From Octopus vulgaris (taxonomy: Eukaryota): a DNA stretch of 64,000 nt. The stretch lies in NCBI GenBank assembly GCA_951406725.2, contig OX597819.1, positions 37,882,001-37,946,000 of the forward strand. The letters are read 5' to 3'. The notes under the pieces were generated by a model. The model did not search any database. It was given only the letters and a program-made list of their open reading frames with translations, and was not told where the DNA came from. Shown piece by piece: positions 5,460-59,528 of the stretch. The translations under genes and the position numbers were made by a program. The number at the start of each line of letters is the position of its first letter. The stretch's first letter is position 1.

Positions 5460-5646
5460 ATGAGAGGGATGACCACTATGTGGACAACCCTTATGCTAGA
5501 AGTAGATCCACTATGGTCTTACCACTAAAAATGTTCTCAAGAATTTCTTAGAGGTAAGACCATAGTGGATCTACTTCTTTGTGGTAAGACCATAGCGGAT
5601 CTACTTCTAGCATAAGGGTTGTCCACATAGTGGTCAACCCTCTCAT
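5460..5646. repeat. Inverted repeat with arms of about 66 bp and an internal partial third copy
   Basis: atgagagggatgaccactatgtggacaaccc... is the reverse complement of ...gggttgtccacatagtggtcaaccctctcat. Confidence 0.9.
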
Positions 5647-20036: not shown

Positions 20037-21728
20037 TTGCATCGGAAATTAATTAGCACTTCTCAAATTTCTACATTTTCTTACATTTTCTTAATTTAAT
20101 TAACTTATTATCAGAAACGAACTCGTTTTTAATCAAAAATTTATTAAAACATATCCCAGCACACCACATAATTGTTATTAATCGTGAAATTTAGTCAATA
20201 TCTTGTTGCTCCTCCTTTGGCAGCAATGACAGCTGCTACGCGGGTCGGCATGCTGTCTATGAGTGCCTGCAGGTACTGTGCAGGGATGGCCCCCCATGCA
20301 GCAAGAAGTGCCCCAAACAGCTCGTATAGGTTCCTGTATTGTTGCACATTCAAATCCCTACCCAATCGACTCCAGAGGTTCTCAATAGGGTTCAGGTCAG
20401 GTGACTGACCAGGCCAGTCCATGACCGTCACCCCATGGTCCTTGAAGAAACCGGTTGTGAGCTTGGCTGTGTGGGAAGGCGCGTTGTCCTGCTGGAGCAG
20501 TACTCCTCGCCACCAAAGAGGTATCCCGTACTATCTCAACGTACTTTGCTGCGTTGATGTTGCCTTTGACGGCATAGAGCCGCCCAACACCACTGTAGCT
20601 GAACGCCCCTCACACCATCAGACCACCCCCACCTTGCTTCATGGTGGGAGCAACGCAGTCTTTGTTGAAGCGCTCACCCCTGCGGCATCGCACATGGACA
20701 GGCTTGTCACTGACGAGACTGAATTACGACTCATCAGTGAACATCACTGTCCGCCACTGCTGCACGGTCCATGTCTTGTGGGCACGGGACCAGAGCAGCC
20801 GCCTCTTCCGGTTTTGGGCTGTAAGGAGCGGCTTACGGGTGGCCCTACAGGATTTTAGACCAGCTTCCAGTAATCTGGTCTTGACGGTGGTTGTAGACAA
20901 CTGCTTCTCTGTCATCTTTTGCATCTCCTCCGCCAGTTGCCGGCTCGTTACCCTTCGGTTGTACAGTGACTTTCGGATCAGCATCTGGTCCTCCCGCTGG
21001 GTCGTCAGCCTCTTCCGTCCCCTACCCTTTTTGTCAGCTGCTGATCCGGTTTCCTCGTATTTCTTAAATAAGCACTGAATTGTGCGCCTGGCTACACCAA
21101 GTTTTCTGGCTATTGCAACCTCCGACAGCTTCCCACACCACGAGAGAGCCTTGTACCGTCTCTCCAAGGTCATGCGAGGTCTTGGGCCCATCTAGGAATG
21201 AACGATAAAAACCAGTTATTTTCATTAAAACTATTCATTTGAATAATGTTATGCTATAACAAAACTGCTATGAGTTATTATTCATTAAACAAAAAAGAAA
21301 GAAAGCAGAATTTCTCACCTTATTTGATGTATAACAGAAAGTTTTGTGAACCGGAAGTGACGTCACCAAGCAGAGTGTAGGAGAATTTGTGAGGAAAAAA
21401 ATCTTGCAAATACACAAATCAATTAACCTACAAGCTGTTCAAAACGTCTTACGCGATGAGAAAACTTAGTACGGTGTGATTTCGGTCCTTGCGAGGCGCT
21501 ACCTATATCTATTAAACAAAGGAAGATTTGTCTGCATCCGCACTCCAAGTTGTTGTTGCACTGCTATGTCAACATCATTAGGCTGTAGACTCTCAAACCA
21601 CTCTGCAAACAAAGTTACGTCATCGTTCTGCGCAACAAAGCAATAGTTCGAGATATGGCCACTAGGTGACAGCACATACCTTGAGTGAAGAGCAAATCAA
21701 GGGTGCTAATTAATTTCTGATGGTAGTG
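20034..21728 (-). mobile_element. Full-length Tc1 (DD34E) transposon with disrupted transposase (21191 to 20195)
   Basis: 26-bp TIRs CACTnnCATCrGAAATTAATTAGCAC and TA TSD in (TA)n. HTH, FTDES, QQDNA and WPGQSPDLNPIENLW motifs, with stops and a frameshift. Confidence 0.93.
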
Positions 21729-23009
21729 TATATATATTTATAGCCCAGGGCTTACCAAAGCTTTGTGAGTGGATTTGGTTAACAGAAACTGAGAAAAAGT
21801 CTGCTGTACGTACATACATACATCATACATACATACATACATACATACATACATACATACATACATACATACATACAGCAGACTTTTTCAGTTTCTTTTA
21901 ACCAAATCCTCTCACAAAGCTTTGGTAAGCCCTGGGCTATAGTAGAAGACACTTGCCTTAGGCGCCAGGCAATGGGACTGAACTCAGAACCATGTGGTTG
22001 GGAAACAAGCTTCTTACTCACAGCCACACCGGTGCCTGTTTGTATATTAACTGTATGTTACCGACACATTTCTAGCTATTACACGAATCTCAGCACAGTA
22101 GAATATATGGGTGGTTGAGTCAACAGCAATTAATTATAGATTATCAGTTCCCTTTTATTTTCCGTGTAGTAGGACCACAGGCAAGCAGGCAGAGAAAGTA
22201 GGTTTCATATGTGGCAGATGCAAAGGAATAGTTAGCAGTGAGATTACATGAGAAATAAATTCTTTCAAATGTTTGGAGACCCGACAAGAAGTAGTTGCTA
22301 ACTTTTGTTGCCTGAGTGGAGGAGAATGTTCTGAAAGTATGGTTGGTGGAGTAAGAATGGATAGAAAAGGCTTAGCAAGCTATTACCTCCGCTGATAACA
22401 ATGGGTTTCTCTCTCAGAGTAAAAGACAAAATGTGTGTACAAATTTATTTGTTATGTTTTTTTTTATGCTCTATTTGATTCCATTACCATTAATGATACC
22501 TATTCCATCAGTAAATGTTCTCCTATTTCTTGGAACTCCTTTCAAATAACAGCCAAAGCATGTACACACATGCATGCTTGCATGTATGCATACACAAACA
22601 TATACATTTGTGTGTGTGTGTGTGTAAGTTGTGATACTGCATGATAGTATTACATGAGCCTTGGACTGCAGAACATTTGTATTGGTTGCAAAGAACTGAA
22701 GTGAGCACATGTTACCCAATGAGTAATATTAGTGTCCATGAAAGATGGAGAATAATAATAATAATAATAATAATGAAATAAGGCGGCGAGTTGACAGCAA
22801 CGTTAGCACGTCGGGTGAAATGCTTAGCGGTATTTCGTCTGTCTTTAAGTTCTGAGTTCAAACTCCGCCGAGGTCAACTTTGTCTTTCATCCTTTCGGGG
22901 TCGATAAATTAAGTACCAGTTATGCACTGGGGTCAATGCAATCGAATTAATGCCTTTGTCTGTTCTTGTTTGTCTCCTCTATGTTTAGCCCCTTGTAGGC
23001 AATAGGGAA

Positions 23010-27946: not shown

Positions 27947-29208
27947 TGTCCAAATGTCTCATGTGCAAAATAAGAGAATGATCAAGCCAAAAAATACTTC
28001 AATTAACTCAAAACCATAATAATGATTGAAAGAAATGTAAATATGAACTTAATACAGTTAGTGTGATGTTTGTAGACCTTTGCTGGAGATCACCTCTGCA
28101 CATCGATTGCCACAGGACATAGCAAGTTTCCTGCACAAGTCAGGTGTTCCTTTCTTCCATTCCTCTTCTAATACACCCATAAATTCATCATAGTAGTTGG
28201 TGCCCTTTGTGTTACTTTGTCCCCAAGTATCTCCCAAAGGTTTTCAATTGGTATTAAGTCTGGACTTTGTGCTGGCCACTTCATTACTTGGATATTTTGT
28301 TCACTAAAGAATTCAGTAACATGGTTTGCAGCATGACAAGGGGCGTTATCTTGCATGAAAATGCACGGTTGATTTGGAAATGCTTGTAATGATGGGATCA
28401 CAGGCTGTTTAACCAAATTCAAATACATATTACCATTAATAGTCCCTTTAATCTGCACTAGAGGGCCAACTCTTTCAGAAGAAATCATTCCCCACACCAT
28501 GACACTTCCTCCTCCAAACTTGGCAGATTTCTTCAGGCACTTGGATTTAGCCGATCTCCTGTGAAGCACCTAACGTACTCTCTACCATCTGAACCTATTA
28601 AATTGAATTTGTTTTTAGTGCTAAAATGAACTTTTGACCAATTTTCATCCCTCCAGTTCATATGAGCTTCTGCAAATAAAAGTCTTTCCAATTTTTTCTT
28701 CTTGCTGATGATAGGTTTTGTTGCTGGGGGACAAGACTTTAATCCAAATCCCTTCAGATGACAAGACACTGTAAAGTGGCTCACTTCTGTACCATTATTT
28801 ACTTTTATTTTCTTAGAAGTTGCATCCACAGTCTTGAAAAGATCCTTCAATACATACTGTTTCATGGCTTGATCATCTTGTATGGTGGTTTTATGTGGTT
28901 TACCAGTTGCCTTTTGCAGTTCAAAATCTTTAGTTTCTTCATAGAGCTTAAGAACACATGAAACTATACTCTTAAATCTCCTTACGTCTCGTGAAATAGC
29001 CAAGAGAGTCATTCCTGAAACTTTCATCCCGACAATTTCTTTTTGGCGGTTGGGAGTAACTTTAGCGTGGTGTGCCATGTTCGGAAGCTAGCACAATACC
29101 GAGATGGTAGTAACGTTGGGCCTGCAAATGTAAACAATGTTTGAAATTTTCAGAAATTTCTGAAGGAATCTAATCGTTCTCTTATTTTGCACATGAGATA
29201 TTTGGACA
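27947..29208 (-). mobile_element. Tc1 transposon with degraded transposase
   Basis: Inverted termini of about 36 bp (tctcatgtgcaaaataagagaa). GGGSVMVWG, FMQDNAPCH and WPAQSPDLIPIENLW motifs. Confidence 0.9.
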
Positions 29209-31234: not shown

Positions 31235-32910
31235 AATTGTGACTGGTGTAGCAGCATAGTAATCAACTGTTACAAAAGTAAAGGTGACGCCTTAGATAGA
31301 AATAATTACAGAGGTATCAAATTGTTGGATCAAGTGATGAAAGTCATGGAGTGGGTCATAGCCCAACTAATTAGAGAGAGAATTAGTTTAGATGAGATGT
31401 AGTTTGGTTTTGTGCCAGGGAAAAGCACCACTGAAGCTATATTTCTGGTAAGACGGCTGCAGGAGAAATTCCTAGCCAAAGATAAACCTCTATACTTGGC
31501 TTTCATTGACATTGAGAAAGCTTTGACAGGGTCCCTTATCTGGTGGTCAATGTGGAAACTAGGGATAGATGAGTGGTTGCTGAGAGCTGTACAAGTCGTG
31601 TACAGGGATGCTATCAGTAAGGTGTGGGTTGGCAATGAATATAGTGAAGAATTCAGGGTACAAGTAGGGGTTCACCAAAGATTAGTCCTCAGCCCCCTCT
31701 TGTTCATCATAATCCTTCAGATGATAATAGAGGAATTCAAGATAGGCTGCCCCTGGGAACTCCTCTATGCTGATGACCTTGCTCTTTTGGTTGAATCACT
31801 ACCAGAACTAGAGCAGTTTCAGATGTGGAAGCAAGGTCTGGAATCAAAGGGTCTTTGAGTGAACCTAGCAAAAATCAAAGCCTTAGTAAGTAGGAAGGCA
31901 GAAAAATCACAAATCCCTTCAGGTGGATGGCCCTGCTCAATCTGTAGAAAAGGTGTAGGTAGAAACTCCGTAAGATGTACCAAGTGTAAGCTAAGGACAC
32001 CTAAGAGCTGCAGTATTATCAGAGGAAGGTTAACAGGGAAAACAGTTTCTATGTGTGGTGCACAGGTACAATAAACACCAAAAATGTGCAGAAAATAGAT
32101 TCTATCACAGAAGTAGTTGATAGCTTCCGTTACCTAGGTGAGCAAGTCAGTAGCAGGGATGGATTCTCTGAGAGCATAGCCGCTAGAATAAGAATAAGCT
32201 GGGCAAAGTTCAGAGAGCTCCTACCTCTGCTAGTAACAAAGGGCTTCTTGCTCAGAGTAAAAGGCAGACTGTATGATGCCTGCATGTGAACAGCCATGCT
32301 ACACAGCAGTGAAACATAGGCTGTGACTGCTGAGGACATGTTTAGGCTTGTTAGAAATGAAGCTAATATGCTCTGCTGGATGTGTAATGTCAGTGTGCAT
32401 GCATGTCAGAGTGTAAGCACTCCTGAGAGAAAAGTTGGACATCAGAAGCATCAGATGTATTGTGCAAGAGAGACAACAGTGCTAGTATGGTCATGTGATG
32501 CATATGGATGAAGACAGCAGTGTGAAGAAATGTAGCACTCTGACGGTGGAGGGAACCTGTGGAAGAGGTAGACCCAGGAAGACATGGGACAAGGTAGTGA
32601 AGCACAATCTTCAAATGTTGGGCCTCACAGAGGCAACGATGAGTTACCGAGACCTTTGGAGATATGCCGTGCTTGAGAAGATCTGTCAAGCTAAGTGAGG
32701 TCATAGCCATGGCTGATGTCAGTGTCGTGTAACTGACTCGTTAAAAGCACCCTTCAATTGTTGGGTGATATGCTGTGCTTGTGAAAACCTGTTGAACCAA
32801 GTGAAATTGTAATCATGGCTGATGCCAGTGCCATCTGACTGGCACCTGTGCTGATGGCATCTAACCCATGCCAACATCGAAAACAGACATTAAATAATGG
32901 TGATGATGTT
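31235..32910 (+). mobile_element. Older degraded RTE LINE copy
   Basis: PGKSTTEAIF, LYADDL, WPCSICRK and GRGRPRKTW motifs. Stops and frameshifts. Colinear with 49470-51580. Confidence 0.9.
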
Positions 32911-36900: not shown

Positions 36901-36949
36901 TCCAGCAATTTGATACCCTTATAATTATTTCTGTCTAGGGTACTAGAGA

Positions 36950-37730
36950 TTTTAAGCATATCAACGGTGATTCCTGATGGGCTGGAAGCTTTCCCTGTTT
37001 TCATGCCCCTAATTACTTTATCTACTAAGCTGCTGTCGATTTGAATAACCGGACCCTCTGTTAGGTCCACATTAGGTAGGCTCTCCTTCTATACATTCTC
37101 TACATTTAACAGCCTTTCATAGCGGCACTCCCAAGCCTCTTTCTTTACAAAATCACTAACTGCAAGTGAGCCATCATCCATGTGAACACATTTCTCTTCT
37201 ACCACATTATGATTTTCTCTGACATGCTGTCTAGCAATTCAGAACACTTCAAGCCTCTGGTCCACATGACACAGAACATTGACAAACTTCCTCCTTTTTG
37301 CTTCTCCCCTGGCTAAGTACACTTGTCTTCTAGCCTCTCTCCTAGCTTCCTGATATAGTTCCATGCTACTATCACTCTTCCAGTCCTTCCAGGCCTGTTT
37401 CTTTGCTCTAATGGCCTTCTCTACAGCATCATTCCACCACCACATTAACCTAGGTCTGGTTGGAACTTTGCACCAGCTGTTGGTTTGGTCTATGGTACTC
37501 AGCAAGCTGTCCCACAGGAATTCCCGGTTGCCCTCTGTTACTAGTCTGTACTTCCTCCTCCTCATCATCAAATTTCTCAATTAGGGTGCCCCCAAATATA
37601 TGACCGTATAAATGATCCTTAATCTTCCAAATCCTTCTTTTCCAGATTGGTCTGCTTCTTGGCATCCTTCTAGCTTGAACTATAAAATCACTAATGACTA
37701 GTCTATACTGGGGGGTACATTCTTCAGGGA
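36950..37730 (-). mobile_element. RTE LINE fragment (endonuclease-RT linker)
   Basis: WWWNDAVEKAIRAKKQAWK, homologous to 48650-49400. Confidence 0.85.
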
Positions 37731-46093: not shown

Positions 46094-46128
46094 GTTTAAC
46101 GTTTCGAGTGGAGCTCTTCATCAGAAAC
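46094..46128 (-). ncRNA. Minimal type I hammerhead ribozyme motif
   Basis: GUUU-CUGAUGA-A-GAG-cucca-CUC-GAAA-CG-UU-AAAC: intact core, helix I, helix II and a palindromic helix III. Confidence 0.7.
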
Positions 46129-46777
46129 ATAGGAAAAGGAAAGATCCAAAGAAGGGAAGACGGAGGAAAAAAAATCGCTAACGGTACACACGCGGTCACA
46201 TTTTGAATATATATATATATATTTCTCTTTATCTCTCTGGCTAGATAACCATGTGCTGCCTCTACAGCAAGACACATTTTTCTATCTCACTGTCACATGT
46301 TAACCTTCCATCATCTGACACAAAATCACCCCCTCCAATGCCCCTTCCCCCTCAAAGGTTCTTGTATCTCATCGACAGCAAGACACCTGTTTCTGTCTTT
46401 CTGTCACACTAAGCTTTCATCATCTGATACAAGATCACCTCCTCTAATGCCCCCTCCCCTCTCAAAGATTCTTTGTCATGTAAGTTACTTGCTAACCCTG
46501 CCAGTGTTGGTGCCACATAAAACGCATCTAGTCCACACTGTAAAGTGGTTGGTGTTTGGAAGGGCAGATGGCTGTAAAATCATGCCAAAACTGACCTTGC
46601 CTGTGCTGGTGTCACATAAAAAGCACTCATTTCACTCTATGGAGTGGTTAGTGTTAGGAAGGGCATCCAACTATAAAAACCATGCCAAAAGAGACAGAAA
46701 AGTCTGGTGCAGTCTTCTGCCTGGCAATCCATGCCATCATATAGGGCAGAAGTTAAACACTGGAGATGATGATAATG

Positions 46778-46840: not shown

Positions 46841-49800
46841 CTAGCTTAAGGTGACCCACTCTACGCGCGGGTAAGAGTGTGGTTGTTATTTTCTGTTGCA
46901 TCCTTTCGGCACATAAAAAGCACCAACCGATCGTGGCCACTGCCAGCGCCCCTCCCCCATGGCACCTGTGCCGGTGGCACGAAAAAAGCACCCACTACAA
47001 TCACAGAGTGGTTGGCGTTAGGAAGGGCATCCAGCTGCAGAAACACTGCAAGATCAGACTGGAGCCTGGTGCAGCTCCTGGCTTCCCAGACCCCGGTCAA
47101 ACTGTCCAACCTGTGCTAGCACGGAAAACGGACGTTAAACGATGATGATGATGATTCTCCCTCTTTGTTTCTCTCTCCTTTCTCTCTCCCTTTCCCACTC
47201 TCTTACTCTTCCTTTCTCTCGGACTCTCCCTCGCTTTCTCTTACTCTCTATCTTTCTCTATCTATCTCTCTCCCATTTATAAACAACAAAAGATCTTGAG
47301 TAAGTTGAGAAAGAAAGTTGTTTGAAGGATCAATCATAAATATCAGGCAGTGACAACGGAAAGGTCTGCTTCAAGGCAGAAAGCAAAACACTAACATTTA
47401 AAAGGGACAGATAAACTTGCAAGCTGAAAAAAAAAATTGGAAACCAAAGTTTGGAGGGATGGAATCTGAAGATAGCAGAGTCACCATGGCTGGCATTTCT
47501 TAACGACGGACAGCAATGTAGTTGCAGTTTAACGGCTGGCGTAAAATTTTGAACTTGATGTAAAAGAAAATTCCTGAACACCAAGTTTTGAAGTGATTCT
47601 TTCTCACGACAGTAGACTCACCATGGCAAGCATTCTTCATCATGGACGGCAACACATTGACGATTTAAAAGGCTGGCGCAAATTTTTTAGCTTGATGTAA
47701 CAGAGAATTCCTAAATATTTAAGAACTGGAAAATTTTTCAAATTTACAGAAAAATTTTTGTTTACAATGGTCGGCTTGAGCATACAAATAAATTCTTTTT
47801 ATCCACACAAAAATAAATAATATCTGTTACCTTTCTGAAAGACCTGTGGTAGGAATATTTAAACTTTTGTGGCTGTCATTGAGAGACACTTTGGAGAAGA
47901 AAGAGAGATGGCGGAGGTGCCAAACGTCGTTATAGAGAGAGAGAAAATGGAGAGAAGGGGGAAAAGAGAGAGATCGAGGAAGAAAAGGTGATATATGAAA
48001 GAGAGGGCTGAAAAATGAAATATTTTGAAACCTAAAGATGATTTGTTTTAAGAGAAAGATTCTCATGATTGTGTGATGGTGGTGGTGGCGATTATAATTC
48101 TCTTTATGAATGCAGACAGACGTAGAGAGAGAGAGAGAGAGAGAGAGAGTGACAGCGCTGGCAAAGGAAATATAGTAGACACTATCAAATGACGTTATAG
48201 TGAGAAAGTGAAAGGAAGGGAGGAGAGAGAGAGAGAGAGAGAAGTTTTGAAGTGATTTTTTCTCACGACAGTAGACTCACCATGGCAAGCATTCAAAACT
48301 TCTTCATCATGGACGGCAACACATTGATGATTTAAAGGCTGGCGCAAATTTTTTAGCTTGATGTAACAGAGAATTGCTAAACACCCGTTCCTGTAAATTT
48401 TAATCCCCTTCAAGCCCCATTTAGATCTCTTTTCACGTTTTGGTTAATATAACCCGATTTCATTCGGGTCTACTCGGGCCACATTTTATAAGATGAGGAA
48501 TTTTGTCCTAGAGGTCGCACCTTTCATTTGAGGGGAAAAAATAGTTGCCATGCAAACTCGCCAGCACTTTTAACATAGGTGTGCATATTTTCAGCTCAAC
48601 CGACATATTATATATATATATATATACGCATTAAATATATATGTGTAGTTAGTGACTTTAGGATCAGGACTAGGAGGACAACCAGAAGACGACAAATATG
48701 GAGAAGAAGGATCTGGAAGCTTAAAGATCCTGCAAATGGACAGAGATTTAGGGACATATTACTTGAAGCCTCTGACGAAGTAGAAGGGGATAGAGCATCA
48801 CAGGGGGTAGAAGACAGCTGGACGTTTCTAAGGGACAACCTGCTGAGAGCCACTGACCAGATCTGTGGCTGGTGCAAAGTCCCCTCTCGACCTAGAATAA
48901 CGTGGTGGTGGAACAATATTGTAGACAGGGCTATTAGAGAAAAGAGACAGGCTTGGAAGGTCTGGAAAAATGGGGGTAGCAGGGGATTGTATCAGACTGC
49001 CAAAAGAGAAGCTAGGAGACAGGTTTATTTAGCCAGAGGGGAAGCAGATAAGAAAAAATTTGCCAATGTTCTGCGCCGTGAGGACCAAAGACTGGAGGTG
49101 TTTCGTGTTGCAAGACAGTGTGTGAGAGAGAATCGTGATGTGGTAGGAGAGAAGTGTGTTCGCATGGAAGATGGTTCACTTGCGCTAAATGAGGATGCAA
49201 AGAGAGAGGTTTGGAGATGCCACTATGAAAGGTTGCTGAATGAAGAAAATGAATGGGATAAAGAGAGTCTGCCGAATGTTGACCCAACAGAGGGACCAGC
49301 TATCCGAGTTGATAGTTCCGTGGTAGCTAAGGCAATTAGAAGCATGAAGACAGGGAAAGCCCCAGGCCCATCAGGAATCACTGCAGAGATGCTCAAAATG
49401 TCTGGTAGTGTCGGCTATAGCCTAGTCACCCGTATAGTTAATCAGGTGATACACAAAGGGGTCATACCCAATGACTGGTGTAGCAGTATAATAGTCAACT
49501 GCTACAAAGGTAAAGGTGATGCCCTAGATACAAATAACTACAGAGGTATCAAGCTGTTGGACCAGGTGATGAAGGTTACGGAGAGGGTCATAGCCCAACT
49601 AATTAGAGAGAGAGAGTTAGTTTAGATGAGATGCAGTTTGGGTTTGTGCCAGGGAAAAGTACTACTGATGCTATATTCCTGGTAAGGCAGCTGCAGGAGA
49701 AATACCTAGCCAAAGATAAGCCCCTGTACCTGGCTTTTGTTGACATGGAGAAAGCCTTCGACAGGGTCCCCCGATCCCTTATCTGGTGGGCAATGAGGAA

Positions 49801-52295
49801 ACTAGGGATAGATGAATGGTTAGTGAGAGCTGTGCGGGCCATGTATAGGGACGCCGCTAGTAGGGTGAGGGTTGGAAATGTGTACAGTGAAGAATTCCGG
49901 GTAGAGGTAGGAGTCCACCAAGGCTCAGTACTCAGCCCCCTCCTATTTATCATAGTCCTCCAGGCAATAACGGAGGAATTCAAGACAGGATGCCCTTGGG
50001 AGCTCCTCTATGCTGATGACCTTGCTCTAATTGCTGAGTCGCTATCAGAACTGGAGGAGAAGTTTCAGGTGTGGAAACAAGGATTAGAATCGAAGGGCCT
50101 CAGAGTCAATCTAGCTAAAACCAAAGTCGTAATCAGTAGGAAGGTAGACAAATCACAAACACCTTCAGGTAGATGGCCCTGCTCGATCTGTAGAAAAGGT
50201 GTAGGTAGAAACTCTATAAGATGCACCAAGTGTAAGCTATGGACACATAAGAGATGCAGCAATGTCAAAGGAAGGCTAACTAGGAAGATGGTTTTTGTAT
50301 GTGGCAGATGCTCAGGAACAATAAACACTGAAAATGCTCTGAGACCAACTTCCGTCACTTTCCAGGGAGAAAAACTAGAAATAGTTGATAGTTTCCGTTA
50401 CCTAGGTGACCAAGTCAGCAGCGGGGGCGGGTGTGCTGAAAGTGTAACTGCTAGAGTAAGAATAGCTTGGGCAAAGTTCAGAGAGCTCTTACCTCTGCTG
50501 GTGACAAAAGGCCTCTCGCACAGAGTGAAAGGCAGACTGTATGATGTGTGTGTACGAACAGCCATGCTACATGGCAGTGAAACATGGGCCGTGACTGCTG
50601 AGGATATGCGTAAGCTCGCAAGAAATGAAGCCAGTATGCTCTGATGGATGTGTAATGCCGGTACTCTCACTCGGCAGAGTGTAAGTACCTTGAGAGAAAA
50701 GCTGGACCTAAGAAGCATCAGTTGTGGTGTGCAAGAGAGACGTTTGCGCTGGTATGGTCATGTGGCGAGAATGGATGAAGATAGTTGTGTGAAAAAGTGC
50801 CACACCCTAGTGGTTGAGGGAACCTGTGGAAGAGGCAGACCCAGGAAAACCTGGGACGAGGTGGTGAAGCACGACCTTTGAACTTTAGGTCTCACTGAGG
50901 AAATGACTAGAGACCGAGACCTCTGGAAGTGTGCTGTGCGCGAGAAGACCCGGCAGGACAAGTGAGTCCATAACCCGTGGCCTTCTACATGGGATGGAGC
51001 CGGCCTACGTATGCATACCTTCCCTTCTTGGGACACAAAACTCTACTTGTGAAGACGTGTTGAGGCAAGTGAGGATCAGAATCGAAATCGATCAATGGAA
51101 ATTGCGGATGTGCTACCAGTGCCGGTGGCATGTCAAAACTCTGCTTGTGAAGACCCGTTGAGGCAAGTGAGGATCAGAATCGAAATCGATCAATGGAAAT
51201 CGATCAATGGAAATTGCAGATGTGTTACCAGTGCCGGTGGCATGTAAGAGAACTTTCCGTTTCACGACCGTTGCCAGCACCGCCCCGTTTCGTGTCCGTT
51301 GCCAGCCTCGCCTGGCCCTCGTGCCGGTGGCACATAAAAAGCACCATCCGTTCGTGGCCGTTTGCCAGCTCTGTCTGGCACCAGTGCGGGTGGCACGTAA
51401 AAAGCACCCACTACACTCACGGAGTGGTTGGCGTTAGGAAGGGCATCCAGCCGTAGAAACACTGCCAGATTTGACTGGGCCTGATGAAGCCTTCTGGCTT
51501 CACAGACCCCAGTAGAACCGTCCAACCCATGCTAGCATGGAAAACGGACCCTAAACGATGATGATGATGATGATGATGATGCATTATATATATATGTGTG
51601 TGTGTGTGTGTGTATGTGTGTGTGTGTGTGTATGCATTATATATATGTGTGTGTGTGTGTGTGTACGCAATATATATACAAATTATATATATATAAATAC
51701 AGATATATACACTTTGAATATATACATTATATATACATATTTATATACAGAACACACACACACACACACATATATAAATTAACCCAATAAATATTTGATT
51801 CATAATATTTGTTCTCATGATTTTGTGGTGGTGGTGGCGATAATAATTCTCTTTATAAATGTAGACAGATGTAGAGAGAGAGAGAGAGAGAGAGTGACAG
51901 CGCTGGCGAAGGAAAGATAGTAGACTCTATCAAATGACGTTATAGAGAGAAAGTGAAAGGAAGGGAGGAGAGAGAGAGATGGAGGAAGACAGGCAGACAA
52001 TAGAATGCGATGGCGGCGAGGGAAAGATAATAGATGCTGTGAAACGACATTATAGATAGAACGTGAAAGGAAGGGAGGAAAGAGAGTGAGTGATGGAGGA
52101 AGACAGATACATAAAAGAATGAGAGTAGACTTGTCAAAGTGCGTTTTTGGTCCTAGCAACGACACATTTTACATGTCCCTGTAAATTTTGGAGTCAATCC
52201 GACGGGATCTAGTGACCTTTAACCCGTTCTCAATGCCAAAACCAGACAAACAATCAAACAAACAAACTTTTCGCATTTCAGAATTATAATATAGA
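46841..52295 (-). mobile_element. Probable non-autonomous Helitron with nested SINE and RTE insertions
   Basis: Minus strand starts A|TCTATATTATAATTC at 52295 and ends with hairpin acccgcgcgtagagtgggt...CTAG|T at 46841. It contains internal duplicated blocks. Confidence 0.55.
48645..51580 (+). mobile_element. Young 5'-truncated RTE-clade LINE with near-intact ORF2 (RT), 3' UTR and (GAT)n tail
   Basis: KAPGPSG, NYRGIKLL, QFGF, DMEKAFDRV, GVHQGSVLSPLLF, YADD and FRYLG motifs. One AG-slippage frameshift near 49610 and two TGA stops. Confidence 0.95.
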
Positions 52296-54405: not shown

Positions 54406-54817
54406 AATAGATTTTCTCAAAAGCCCAAGAGGTATCCCTAGAAACAGTAGACAGCTTCTATTACCTAGATTGGTGGTTCTCAACTGGGGTCCATATAAGA
54501 TTGTTGAGGGTCATGCAAAAAAATAGTAAATTGGGGATCCACAATAGTGCTTTAAGAGCCCTAGAAAAAATTTTGCTTTAGATTTATGCAATGGTATGTA
54601 TTGCAAGAAACGTTTCTTGCAATACATACCATTACATATATCTAAAGCAAAATATTTTTTGGGGCTCTTAAAGCTCTATTGTGGATCCCCAATTTACTAT
54701 TTTTTTGCATGGACCCCCAAAATCTTATATGGACCCCTGTTGAGAACCACCGATCTAGGTAATAGAAGCTGTCTACTGTTTCTAGGGATACCTCTTGGGC
54801 TTTTGAGAAAATCTATT
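54406..54817. repeat. Spacerless palindrome with arms of about 205 bp
   Basis: Centre aagaaac|gtttctt at 54611/54612. Arms are reverse-complementary with scattered mismatches. Confidence 0.92.
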
Positions 54818-55832: not shown

Positions 55833-56020
55833 TGTATGTATGTATGCATGCATGTATGTATGTATGCATGCATGCATGCATACATACATATATATATCTT
55901 GAAATAAAACTGAATAATGGTTGGCATGTATGCATGCATACATACATACATACATACATACATGCATGTATGCATGCATACATACATACATACATACATA
56001 CATGCATGCATGCATGCATG
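55715..56020. repeat. (TATG)n/(CATG)n/(CATA)n microsatellite complex
   Basis: Direct inspection. Confidence 0.9.
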
Positions 56021-58269
56021 CCAACCATTATTCAGTTTTATTTCAAGATATTTCTTGCCAATAGAGAAAGAGCTGGTTTCTAACCTAGATCCAAGGCTCC
56101 TTCATTGGAATTTCAACATCAACACAGTACTTTTGTATGTATGTATATGTGCAAATTTGTTGGTTTTGTTTAATATATATCTCTTCTCATGCATATACTT
56201 GCATATCTAGACATGCTCATATATATACTTAAAAGATAAACTTCTGGAAAGTTTTTCAGATTTTTACAGCTCCAGTGATGTCTTGAATCTGTTGTCTTCA
56301 AATCAGCTTATGCAAAATGTGTAGCTATTGCATAAGAAATTTTGAAAGTAGGCTTGAAGCCAAAAAAATAAGAGTATACATCATACTTATTGTAAATGGC
56401 TGCCTATCAGTCTTCTACTAGGATATCCCAAAATGCATCTGAATTGGAAGTAGCAATATATAGCATTCACCATCACTTTAATGAATTACTCTTTCTGGTG
56501 CAACATTCACTGGCATTTTAATGATTCAAGTTTCACAGGATCCTTGCTGAGCCTAACTTCTCATTGTCACTGCATGGAATTAAAATGAGAGGATAAAACA
56601 AGAATAATTCCTTTATTCTTGTGTTTAATATTCATCTTTCTACAACCACGTAGATTACACAGTGGTGTTCTTATGAGGTTGGGTTTTATGGCCAAGATGG
56701 TCAGTTTCCTTGAGATTGCATATTAACGAGATATCTGGTCCAAATGAAAACTCTCATGTGAAATTGTTCAACTCACATACACATGTCTATTTTTCTCGGT
56801 CCTATTAAATATTGATCACTAATTCTATCATTTTATTTGGCATTGAAGAATTTCTCACTGTGGCATTAAACAGATTAATTCTTAGTGCAAAGAAGTTGTC
56901 CAAATTTTTGATACCCACAAATGCATTTTTATATGGTGGCACGTAAAAAGTGCCCACTACACTCTCGGAGTGGTTGGTGTTAGGAAGGGCATACAACTGT
57001 GGAAACTCTGCCAGATCAAGATTGGAGCCTGGTGCAGCCATCTGGTTTGCCAGCCCTCAGTCAAAATCGTCCAACCCATGGAAAGTGGACGTTAAACGAT
57101 GGTGATGGATTTTTTTATGTGAAATTGAAATACATCTCTTTACCTTGCTCATAAAAGTAGTGGCAATGGTGGTAATGGTGGTGGTGGTGGTGGAGATGAT
57201 GGTGTTGTTGTTGTTGGTAGTGGTGGTGGTTGCGATATTGGTGATGGTATTGGTGGTGCAGTTTTGATTTTATCATCTGACTCATCTAGTTCAACAACCA
57301 CAAAAACTATATAAAAGTCTTCTTTGGACAGACACAACTTGCCAGAAAGTTTAACACTCGATATGGGGTTAGGAGCTTGGAACTGATGTTGAGCCATTTA
57401 GTAATTTTCATTGGACAGAAAGCCACCCTGCCAATTACCTCAATTACAATTAATTTAAATGAAATACATGTAATATACATTGATAAAGTGAATATTCCAA
57501 TTCTGTTGACATTTCTGACACCATGTTATAATTAATTGTACATTGTAGTTCACAAATGTTAATCAAACAATACACATACATGCTCTGTTCTGATGATGGG
57601 ACCAATATTGATGCCCTTCACATATTGCGAATGTGTGTGTCTATAATGGTGAGCTGGCAGAAGCATTAGAGTGTTGAAAGGAATGCTTTGCAGTATTTCT
57701 TCTGGCTCATTACATTCTGTGTTCAAATCTCACTGAGTTCAATATTGCTTTTCATCCTTCTGAGGCTGATAAAATGGAGCACTGGTCAAGTACTGGTATC
57801 AAAGGTATTGACTAACTTTCTCCCCTCAGAAGTTGCTGGCTTTCTAAATTAGAAATCATTATAATATCAGATTTTCTGGCATACAAGTTAGACCAAAATT
57901 GTCTGGGCATTATACACAAAGATGACTTAGGAAGACCCCCAAAATTTAATGTGAAACGCAGCAGGATTTTGGAAGATAGTGATGGGGTTTAAATGTTTAC
58001 AATACATGTCTACACTATCTACTATGTAAATTTGTATGCTGGAAAATACAGTCTATATCAAAGGGAATACAACTATTGTTGCAAGCATTTCTTCATTATT
58101 GTAACCCATTCTGCATTGATAAAAGATTTCTAATGTGTCTATCCATTCCATCAAGTTAATGTTTCATGTCCACAGAAAGAATATTGCAGAACATATCAAA
58201 ACTGGTATTATTTATTATTGACCTTTGTAAGAGATCCTTATTATTTTTCAAAGATTATTGTACAGAATT

Positions 58270-58698
58270 TTGTTATATTTCGGAATGGTCATATTGCCAG
58301 TTTAGCCAATAAAAACACACGCACTATATATTTGGTGTTATTTTGCTTCAGTGATATTTATTTTTTACATTAATCTTAATCTTATTTCGGCCAAAGTTCT
58401 TTCGTCACACTCCTGTGACCGCATCAGTGGTCCTTTGTTTTCTTCTCACTTACTTGTGTCTCTCCTTACTAACCGTCAGCCATTGTGGCTGACGGTTAGT
58501 AAGGAGAGACACAAGTAAGTGAGAAGAAAACAAAGGACCACTGATGCGGTCACAGGAGTGTGACGAAAGAACTTTGGCCGAAATAAGATTAAGATTAATG
58601 TAAAAAATAAATATCACTGAAGCAAAATAACACCAAATATATAGTGCGTGTGTTTTTATTGGCTAAACTGGCAATATGACCATTCCGAAATATAACAA
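58270..58698. repeat. Perfect palindrome with 213-bp arms and a 3-nt loop, inside an insertion flanked by a 13-bp TSD
   Basis: Arms 58270-58482 and 58486-58698. TSD tattgtacagaat at 58256-58268 and 58756-58768. Confidence 0.95.
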
Positions 58699-58796
58699 TA
58701 TCTGTTTCAACACACGACTTCACATAAAAAATCTTGCACAACAAATATTTAAACGTATTGTACAGAATGTTATATGCTAAAACATCTATATTACAG

Positions 58797-58878
58797 TTTG
58801 ACACATAGTGCTCAAATCCAAAAGGTTGAAGAAAAATATGAGGAAAGCTTAAATGAAAAGAAAGCATCACTAATTAAT
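58797..58878 (+). CDS. CCDC175-like exon 11: (R)LTHSAQIQKVEEKYEESLNEKKASLIN
   Basis: tattacag acceptor, AAT|GTAAGT donor, phase 2 to 0. Confidence 0.83.
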
Positions 58879-59528
58879 GTAAGTATGTTTTATCATATTT
58901 GATCAATTATTCAGTAATTGCTACTAGATAGACTGTCATCTGCTGTAGATTGACAGCAGTAAATAACCATTGACCAAGAATTAATTGTTCACATTTGTTA
59001 ATGTGATCCAGTAGAAAATATCCCCTGTTGACACTCTCTTACCTGCTGAGAAGAAGATATAAAATGACTTCAAGTTGATTTGTTGGCAACAACCGTACTT
59101 GCAGGTACTCCTCTTAATACAAAATTTATCATTCTACTATCTAGTGGATAGAAATAAATAACGCTTAGCTTACATACTAGCATTGGCTGTAATTGTTGTA
59201 GTATGATTGTCTAGTTTTAACAAAGAACGATTTTAATTCATAATGTTTTTAACTGTTTATGAAGTAGAAAAAGACTTCTAATCAAATTGTTAGTGAGGAC
59301 TAGAAATGTAAGTATTCTGCTTTCTTCATGGATTCATGAACTGAATCAATTCATGAATCTGTTTTAATGCATACAATGCCCCCTTATCTCAGTTTCTGTG
59401 GCAATAACTGGCAGAAAACAGTTGTGCCTTTGCAATTTTTGATAAAGAATCTTTACTACAAATAATGTATTTTTTAAAATTAAATGATTTTTAGTGTGAA
59501 ATATTTATCTTTAGCATAATACTTTCTA

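What the first reader, a model, noticed from the sequence alone, without database searches (positions are those of the whole stretch)
58256..58768. Perfect 213-bp-arm palindrome with 13-bp TSD and a hammerhead-like motif in each arm, just upstream of exon 11
Seen: I found no mismatch between the arms (loop TTG). A 57-bp unpaired tail follows the right arm, and the 487-bp insert is flanked by the direct repeat tattgtacagaat. Each arm holds CCA-CUGAUGCG-GUCACA-ggag-UGUGAC-GAAA-GAAC-UU-UGG, whose core deviates at A9. The second TSD ends 28 nt before the exon 11 start. Established: Penelope-like insertions often leave inverted partial pseudo-LTR copies, and coleoid cephalopods edit dsRNA heavily via ADAR. 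Inference: a very recent PLE-type insertion that puts a long perfect hairpin in the pre-mRNA near a branch point, where it could alter splicing, be hyper-edited or yield siRNAs.
Basis: partly seen in the sequence, partly recalled or inferred. Interest (0 to 1): 0.8.

Follow-up and report, generated by a model that had tools for sequence, protein, structure and literature searches.

The report
Penelope retroelement hairpin stub, octopus intron
A real, perfectly mirrored 487-base insert in an octopus intron is one copy of a very abundant repeat and is most likely the stump of a Penelope-like jumping gene, a kind of insertion already described, with no sign so far that it affects the host gene.

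Summary
In detail: perfect 213-bp arms (58270-58482 / 58486-58698), loop TTG, 57-nt tail, 13-bp target duplication, 28 nt before exon 11 of an Octopus coiled-coil gene. Contigs of four public runs show that the arm-plus-tail unit is a high-copy family with two 3' ends 57 nt apart, exactly where this copy's left arm and tail end, mostly followed by (AT)n/(ATT)n; other copies run on 5' of the centre without mirroring. That is the published signature of Penelope-like elements (inverted pLTR, one-sided tail, two reverse-transcription starts, minimal hammerhead, ORF start in the tail) and excludes a fixed fold-back MITE. No linked RT/endonuclease gene could be reached, so the clade is open. The hammerhead's C at position 9 is the family's majority allele, not private decay; in the pre-mRNA it would be locked in the duplex. 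The last 41 nt of the acceptor are unchanged, and the same intron holds an older 206-bp hairpin. Splicing, editing, siRNA and the empty allele remain untested. The scan already found this kind of stub in three other genomes. New member of a known kind; low interest.

The parts
58256..58268 (+). target-site duplication, left copy (13 bp)
58270..58482 (-). left arm: inverted, 5'-truncated pLTR copy; its outer end is the family's proximal 3' end; its inner end agrees with the family's upstream sequence for 2 more bases (58483-58484)
   Evidence: (loose ends at 58701 and 58486)
58483..58485 (.). 3-nt loop at the head-to-head junction
58486..58698 (+). right arm: direct, 5'-truncated pLTR copy
58535..58579 (+). 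minimal type I hammerhead motif: stem I 5 bp with a bulge, core with C at position 9, extra G before a 6-bp stem II, 2-bp stem III, U at the cleavage position 17 (family majority C); mirror image at 58389-58433 on the - strand
   Evidence: architecture as in PMC4209133
58676..58756 (+). start of the element's reading frame, 27 codons running to the end of the tail; peptide conserved with diverged relatives
58699..58755 (+). one-sided 57-nt tail between the family's two 3' ends
58756..58768 (+). target-site duplication, right copy
58480..58514 (+). candidate 35-nt cryptic exon over the hairpin apex (pyrimidine-rich acceptor, GTAAGT donor); not beyond chance, buried in the duplex
58797..58878 (+). 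host exon 11 of an uncharacterised Octopus coiled-coil gene (LOC118763782 / CAI9724042.1)

Best explanation
This perfect 213-bp palindrome with a one-sided tail and a 13-bp duplication is one copy of a high-copy octopus repeat, likely a young, 5'-truncated insertion of a Penelope-like retroelement's terminal repeat, whose mirror half was likely made during insertion. Shown: arms, tail, duplication, high copy number, two family 3' ends, hammerhead motif, conserved frame start. Inferred mechanism: the element's endonuclease nicks both target strands 13 nt apart; both 3' ends prime reverse transcription, the left one at the proximal start (58698) and the right one at the distal start (58755); the left cDNA stops after about 215 nt, folds back and copies itself, which gives the exact mirror and the 3-nt loop; the new strand pairs with the tail-bearing cDNA and repair closes the site. 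The copy codes for nothing, its hammerhead would be trapped in the duplex, and it is most likely a neutral passenger that is spliced out, probably edited like other octopus intronic hairpins.
For:: 11384 of 52,169,119 contigs read (X1), 5305 of 36,192,745 (X3), 6 of 7509 (X14), 1051 of 6,579,193 (X16) lie on 58483-59082; summed depth about 1e6 over the unit in X1 and X3 and near zero or about 150 on the flank (not a copy number). Loose ends cluster behind 58701 (37 contigs X1, 4 X16) and behind 58757-58758 (63 X1, 3 X16, 1 X14), followed by (AT)n, (ATT)n or (CA)n; allowing for the shared TAT these are 58698 and 58755, the ends of this copy's left arm and tail. PMC11167929: the tail lies between two RT start sites, both strands are cut and extended, AT-rich targets. 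PMC3846280: inverted pLTR, tail, 8-10 bp duplications, first 12-22 codons of the ORF in pLTR plus tail. Other copies continue 5' of 58486 with one non-palindromic sequence (20 contigs X1, 6 X16, 1 X14), and 2 contigs of X3 show strand-change joints at other places. Frame from 58676: 85% identical over 26 residues to the N-terminus of O. bimaculoides P0003, 15 invariant columns in the three-row alignment with P0006. Both arms share this copy's minority alleles at 58515, 58574, 58614, 58675; the left arm alone agrees with the upstream family sequence for two further bases. Hairpin -385 kcal/mol against -12.6 for the local hammerhead stretch.
Against: No protein joining this N-terminus to an RT or GIY-YIG domain was found (hits were P0003, P0006 and one spurious repeat protein); the rest of P0003 is not an RT (no Pfam family above cut-off; nearest named Atlas cluster SWIM, score 0.84, 12% of members). 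The octopus Naiad and Hydra elements of Craig et al. 2021 show no match to the five DNA words and two peptide words searched, and the Hydra-1_Obim hammerhead and N-terminus differ. The tail is longer than the 30-40 nt usually quoted. Core C9 and a non-palindromic loop III depart from the PLE hammerhead consensus. Arkhipova et al. 2013 explain such junctions by self-priming on an antisense template, which one copy cannot exclude. No listed contig spans the centre or the whole site.
Confidence: 0.85

Rival explanations
1. An ordinary fold-back MITE that moves as a fixed palindrome.
For: Perfect long inverted arms and high copy number; fold-back elements occur in this window, one at 54406-54817.
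Against: A 57-nt tail on one side; 13-bp duplication; other copies continue 5' of the centre with non-mirrored sequence (27 contigs in 3 of 4 runs); two 3' ends; hammerhead motif and frame start.
Confidence: 0.03
2. Assembly or library artefact (fold-back chimera).
For: Zero mismatches between arms; no listed contig spans the centre (short-word contigs break in repeats and a filter drops records, so this proves nothing).
Against: The mirror stops exactly at a natural family end, the other side ends at the second natural end, a 13-bp duplication frames both, and unique intron sequence continues on both sides unmirrored.
Confidence: 0.03
3. The unit is the end of another mobile element that borrowed a hammerhead: a non-LTR retrozyme monomer, or the 5' end of a DNA transposon with a SWIM-type protein.
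For: Retrozymes are hammerhead-bearing pLTR derivatives (bioRxiv 10.64898/2026.07.22.740005); P0003 continues the same N-terminus into a C-x-C-ending sequence with a weak SWIM lead.
Against: No head-to-tail tandem here; family depth collapses at codon 27, at the tail end, which a transposon's 5' end would not do; P0003 is a lone predicted protein (cluster of 1) and is more likely a chimeric gene model (inference).
Confidence: 0.05
4. Same origin, but the hairpin now changes the host transcript: exon 11 skipping, or inclusion of a 35-nt frameshifting exon once ADAR loosens the duplex.
For: Exon 11 has the weakest pyrimidine tract of the 11 acceptors listed (0.50; others 0.59-0.86); mean unpaired probability over the last 20 intron bases falls from 0.55 to 0.35 in a folding model; acceptor at 58480 (0.73) and GTAAGT donor at 58515 resemble the gene's own sites; octopus hyper-edits long duplexes (PMC5625713).
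Against: Last 41 nt and the -20 branch-like motif unchanged; both cryptic sites lie in the perfect duplex; 11 of 21 GTAAGT words in 6200-59800 have an equally good acceptor 25-250 nt upstream (these 21 include real donors); the predicted O. vulgaris protein keeps exon 11 (whether that animal carries the insert is unknown).
Confidence: 0.04

Closest known systems
Insertion units of endonuclease-bearing Penelope-like elements with inverted pLTR and one-sided tail (Adineta vaga Pen2/Pen2a, Arkhipova et al. 2013, PMC3846280; general scheme in Craig et al. 2021, PMC8557442)
   Same: Head-to-head inverted, 5'-truncated pLTR of about 200 bp; tail at one end only; short target duplication; first codons of the ORF inside pLTR plus tail; simple AT-rich targets.
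   Different: No ORF body between the repeats; tail 57 nt against 31 (30-40); duplication 13 bp against 8-10; clade unassigned.
PAc (Poseidon of Anolis carolinensis; Frangieh et al. 2024, PMC11167929)
   Same: Two family ends bounding a tail, downstream of a hammerhead and inside the ORF start; AT-rich targets.
   Different: In PAc the ORF starts at hammerhead stem II; here the ATG in the core (58544) is in frame but stops after 19 codons and the conserved frame starts at 58676.
Minimal type I hammerheads of metazoan PLEs (Cervera and De la Pena 2014, PMC4209133)
   Same: Long stem II, short stem I, unpaired base between 9 and 10.1, G10.1-C11.1 pair, vestigial stem III; the paper also reports pairs 100-700 bp apart on opposite strands.
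   Different: C at position 9 in most family depth (A in 11-28%); loop III not palindromic; U17 in this copy.
Non-LTR retrozymes (bioRxiv 10.64898/2026.07.22.740005)
   Same: Short, non-coding, hammerhead-bearing, pLTR-derived.
   Different: Defined by head-to-tail tandems; this is a single inverted pair with tail and duplication.
Palindromic Harbinger repeats of Xenopus, hyper-edited (Porath et al. 2017, PMC5625713)
   Same: A self-folding repeat of 200-400 nt in a heavily editing animal.
   Different: DNA transposon with a palindromic consensus; here the consensus unit is not palindromic.

Membership tests
Penelope-like element (EN+) insertion | Inverted, 5'-truncated pLTR in head-to-head arrangement | tested here: met
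Penelope-like element (EN+) insertion | One-sided tail bounded by two recurrent 3' ends | tested here: met
   ends at 58698-58701 and 58755-58758 in runs X1, X16 (both ends) and X14 (distal end); not among the rows shown for X3; 57 nt, longer than usual
Penelope-like element (EN+) insertion | Minimal type I hammerhead in the pLTR | tested here: met
   stems and core checked; position 9 is C here and in most family depth, canonical A in 11-28%; cleavage not tested
Penelope-like element (EN+) insertion | ORF start within pLTR end and tail | tested here: met
   27 open codons from 58676, peptide conserved in P0003 and P0006; that it is the RT ORF is inferred
Penelope-like element (EN+) insertion | Short variable target duplication, AT-rich or simple-repeat targets | tested here: met
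   13 bp here; simple repeats behind both ends in other copies; variability of duplication length not tested
Penelope-like element (EN+) insertion | Autonomous partner with telomerase-like RT and GIY-YIG endonuclease | tested here: inconclusive
   none found; no genome held
Fold-back MITE | All copies share one palindromic consensus bounded by terminal inverted repeats | tested here: not met
   non-palindromic 5' continuation and one-sided tail
Fold-back MITE | Short fixed target duplication | tested here: not met
   13 bp
Non-LTR retrozyme | Head-to-tail tandem of hammerhead-bearing monomers | tested here: not met
   single inverted pair in the window; other loci not testable
Active hammerhead ribozyme | Self-cleavage | not testable with these tools
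   no Rfam hammerhead match, but a canonical-core motif at 46124 was missed as well

The most novel reading that the evidence does not exclude
The palindrome is an editing-gated poison exon: mirroring the pLTR builds a pyrimidine-rich acceptor on one arm and a GTAAGT donor on the other, 35 nt apart across the apex, hidden in the duplex until ADAR melts it, so a single retroelement landing would put a host gene under editing control. A milder and likelier new point (about 0.35): the family spread to thousands of copies with a non-canonical hammerhead core, and its junctions record double priming plus cDNA fold-back, the unsolved late step of Penelope insertion.
Probability: 0.04. Interest if true: 0.7.

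Novelty: new member of a known kind. Interest (0 to 1): 0.2.

Why it matters
As a single locus it matters little: inverted pLTR plus tail insertions are textbook Penelope anatomy, Penelope-like families are listed as recently active in O. vulgaris (31 families, 336 recent insertions; PMC13282606), and long intronic hairpins are common here. Its use is as material: a young, high-copy family whose junctions could be counted to decide how the inverted half is made (double priming with fold-back versus antisense self-priming), and whose majority C9 hammerhead tests whether cleavage is dispensable in vivo, as it was in vitro for PAc.

Tried and rejected
Whole genome: none held. Other copies in the window: none by blastn (best other E 0.58). 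Rfam: only generic microRNA-hairpin matches below gathering score caused by the palindrome, nothing for the single arm, nothing for the control motif at 46124. RT partner: 2 hits of 17 candidates, both already in the query; 2 hits; P0005 is a repetitive Plasmodiophora protein, rejected as chance; DNA or peptide scans of metagenome, viral and prokaryote collections gave 0 loci. Supplement of Craig et al.: no match; supplements of Frangieh et al. held almost no text; the O. vulgaris repeat library of PMC13282606 was not seen and may already contain this family. Expression: no RNA holder listed. Editing: A>G and T>C places were about as many in the guessed-RNA run X16 (3 and 2) as in X1 and X3 (3 and 3 each); pooled family contigs at 85% likeness cannot test editing at this locus. 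Empty allele and centre-spanning evidence: not shown; cover is absent at 58783-58842 in all four runs, only one arm was laid, and 443 loose-end rows and 17,859 pieces were not displayed. The energy evaluation of my hand-drawn hammerhead fold failed on the 2-nt loop and was not used. An A9C literature search gave 6 papers, none read. The branch-like motif at -79 of the pre-insertion site was rejected as the working branch point because four AG dinucleotides follow it.

Full report
Observation. The arms 58270-58482 and 58486-58698 are exact reverse complements over 213 bp around TTG; the repeat finder extends them by three bases with one mismatch. A 57-nt tail follows, and the same 13-mer frames the 487-bp insert, far beyond chance. 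The host is an uncharacterised coiled-coil gene on the + strand; its exons match Octopus sinensis XP_036359414.1 and O. vulgaris CAI9724042.1, and the exon at 58797-58878 is the 11th of 12 matching blocks. Zero mismatches in 213 pairs means a young insertion; an older palindrome in the same intron has decayed to 94%.

The family. No second copy lies in the window and no genome is held, so I used public runs. Of 24 runs listed, 20 hold the stretch or part of it, in 12 studies. I laid 4 of them on the right arm, tail and right flank. The unit is highly repeated: 11384, 5305, 6 and 1051 contigs were laid; summed depth is about 1e6 over the unit in X1 and X3 and drops at the end of the tail. The tool warns that this is no copy number; thousands of copies is my inference. 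Three features decide the class. (1) Loose ends pile up behind 58701 and behind 58757-58758 and continue as (AT)n, (ATT)n or (CA)n. The window reads TAT at both 58699-58701 and 58756-58758, so the true ends may be 58698 and 58755: exactly the outer end of this copy's left arm and the end of its tail. These rows were shown for X1, X16 and (distal end only) X14; X3's displayed rows list other places, and 443 rows were hidden. (2) Before 58486, 20 contigs of X1, 6 of X16 and 1 of X14 continue with one and the same non-mirrored sequence: the family is not a fixed palindrome. Two contigs of X3 change strand at other places. (3) An ATG at 58676 opens 27 codons that run to the tail end; the peptide is 85% identical over 26 residues to the start of O. 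bimaculoides A0A0L8I3J7 and has a more distant unnamed relative (P0006, E 2.7e-4; alignment).

Comparison with print. Arkhipova et al. 2013 (PMC3846280; passages and sections 6 and 11) describe an inverted, shorter pLTR adjacent to the direct one, a 31-bp tail at one end, 8-10 bp duplications, and the first 12-22 codons of the ORF in pLTR plus tail. Craig et al. 2021 (PMC8557442; passages and supplement searches) give the same scheme for all endonuclease-bearing PLEs. Frangieh et al. 2024 (PMC11167929; parts 1-2 of 4) show that the tail lies between two internal RT start sites, that both target strands are cut and extended, that AT-rich DNA is preferred, and that hammerhead mutants still insert in vitro. 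Cervera and De la Pena 2014 (PMC4209133; parts 1-2 of 4) define the minimal PLE hammerhead and mention pairs on opposite strands 100-700 bp apart. Penelope-like families are recently active in O. vulgaris (PMC13282606; passages; supplement listed, not read) and expanded in coleoids (PMC8967140; passages). I also read part 1 of 5 of the retrozyme preprint, passages and section 8 of PMC3088659 and passages of PMC5625713. A search for octopus, Penelope and hammerhead ribozyme together returned only Craig et al.; this family was not found in that paper's supplement, but I could not see repeat libraries, so I do not claim it is undescribed.

What is missing for membership. No protein or contig joins this pLTR to an RT and GIY-YIG domain. 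The remainder of A0A0L8I3J7 is not RT-like; its resemblance to SWIM-finger proteins of DNA transposons is a weak Atlas lead plus my recall. Since family depth collapses at codon 27, I read that protein as a chimeric gene model (inference). The clade is unassigned; the octopus Hydra-1 and Naiad elements do not match.

The hammerhead. Pairing was checked base by base: stem I 5 bp with a bulge, stem II 6 bp closed by G10.1-C11.1, an extra G before it, stem III 2 bp. That A9 pairs with G12 and that its loss lowers activity is recalled, not shown by my calls. In the host pre-mRNA only the right arm has the motif in sense, and it is paired with its complement in a -385 kcal/mol duplex against -12.6 for the local fold, so cleavage of the host transcript is unlikely (inference).

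Mechanism (inferred). A 13-bp duplication implies two 3' overhangs. The strand extended from the left overhang reads as antisense element from the proximal end; the strand extended from the right overhang reads as antisense from the distal end. Both are therefore plausible first-strand cDNAs primed at the two starts, which yields head-to-head arms with a tail on one side. Two independently truncated cDNAs would give unequal arms; here the centre is symmetric to 3 nt, both arms share four minority alleles, and only the left arm agrees with the upstream family sequence for two more bases. This fits fold-back of the left cDNA, self-copying, and pairing with the tail-bearing cDNA. An 8-nt identity between the target just right of the duplication and the start of the left arm (chance about 1e-3) may have helped docking. 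One copy cannot exclude Arkhipova's antisense self-priming model. I put about 0.9 on PLE origin and about 0.5 on this particular route.

Effect on the host. The last 41 nt before exon 11, with the branch-like motif at -20, are the same with and without the insert; the hairpin ends 98 nt upstream. Exon 11's acceptor is pyrimidine-poor, and the folding model lowers its accessibility modestly, so an effect is not excluded. The mirror creates a candidate 35-nt exon over the apex, but such pairs are common by my crude score (11 of 21) and both sites are in the duplex; the donor's G is a minority allele of the family. Editing is expected in octopus for any long duplex but was not testable here. Intron 10 already carries a 206-bp hairpin and the window has at least two more decayed palindromes of about 190-200 nt, so a hairpin in this pre-mRNA is no oddity.

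Earlier notes of this scan: no look-alike by sequence and nothing for this genome; by words, three palindromic Penelope stubs in other genomes, with the same reading that I had entered beforehand. They are unchecked notes and not counted as support.

Verdict. Real, young, and ordinary in kind: a Penelope-like inverted-pLTR stub. New member of a known kind, interest 0.2.

Noticed in passing
window 54406-54817: Second long palindrome in the same intron 10: arms 206 nt, 94% complementary, no loop, no tail, no flanking duplication above 7 nt, no hammerhead core; looks like an older fold-back MITE.
   Followed up: partly
window 46097-46130, - strand: A second minimal hammerhead with a canonical CUGAUGA core and short stem II, next to an (AT)n run; unrelated in sequence to the finding, probably the stub of another Penelope-like family.
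   Followed up: partly
window 5460-5646, 21739-21941, 55894-56051: Further decayed palindromes, 80-83%.
   Followed up: no
window 48579-50644 (+), older copies near 31240-32708 and 36941-37694: Long reading frames of a LINE with a YADD reverse-transcriptase motif, RTE-like by recall, nearly intact in two overlapping frames.
   Followed up: no
window 20195-21191 and 28168-29087, - strand: Broken Tc1/mariner-like transposase frames (family name by recall).
   Followed up: no
window 58544-58603: The ATG inside the hammerhead core opens a 19-codon frame, in frame with the ATG at 58676; the C/A polymorphism at hammerhead position 9 is synonymous (Arg) in it.
   Followed up: no
window 58676: Many contigs (66 in X1, 84 in X3, 6 in X16) match only from the ATG onward and have unlike, A-rich sequence upstream; diverged subfamilies seem to share the coding tail but not the untranslated part.
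   Followed up: no
window 35695: The O. sinensis RefSeq model (244 aa) stops after exon 7, whereas the O. vulgaris model (642 aa) runs on through exons 8-12 present here; probably a split annotation.
   Followed up: partly
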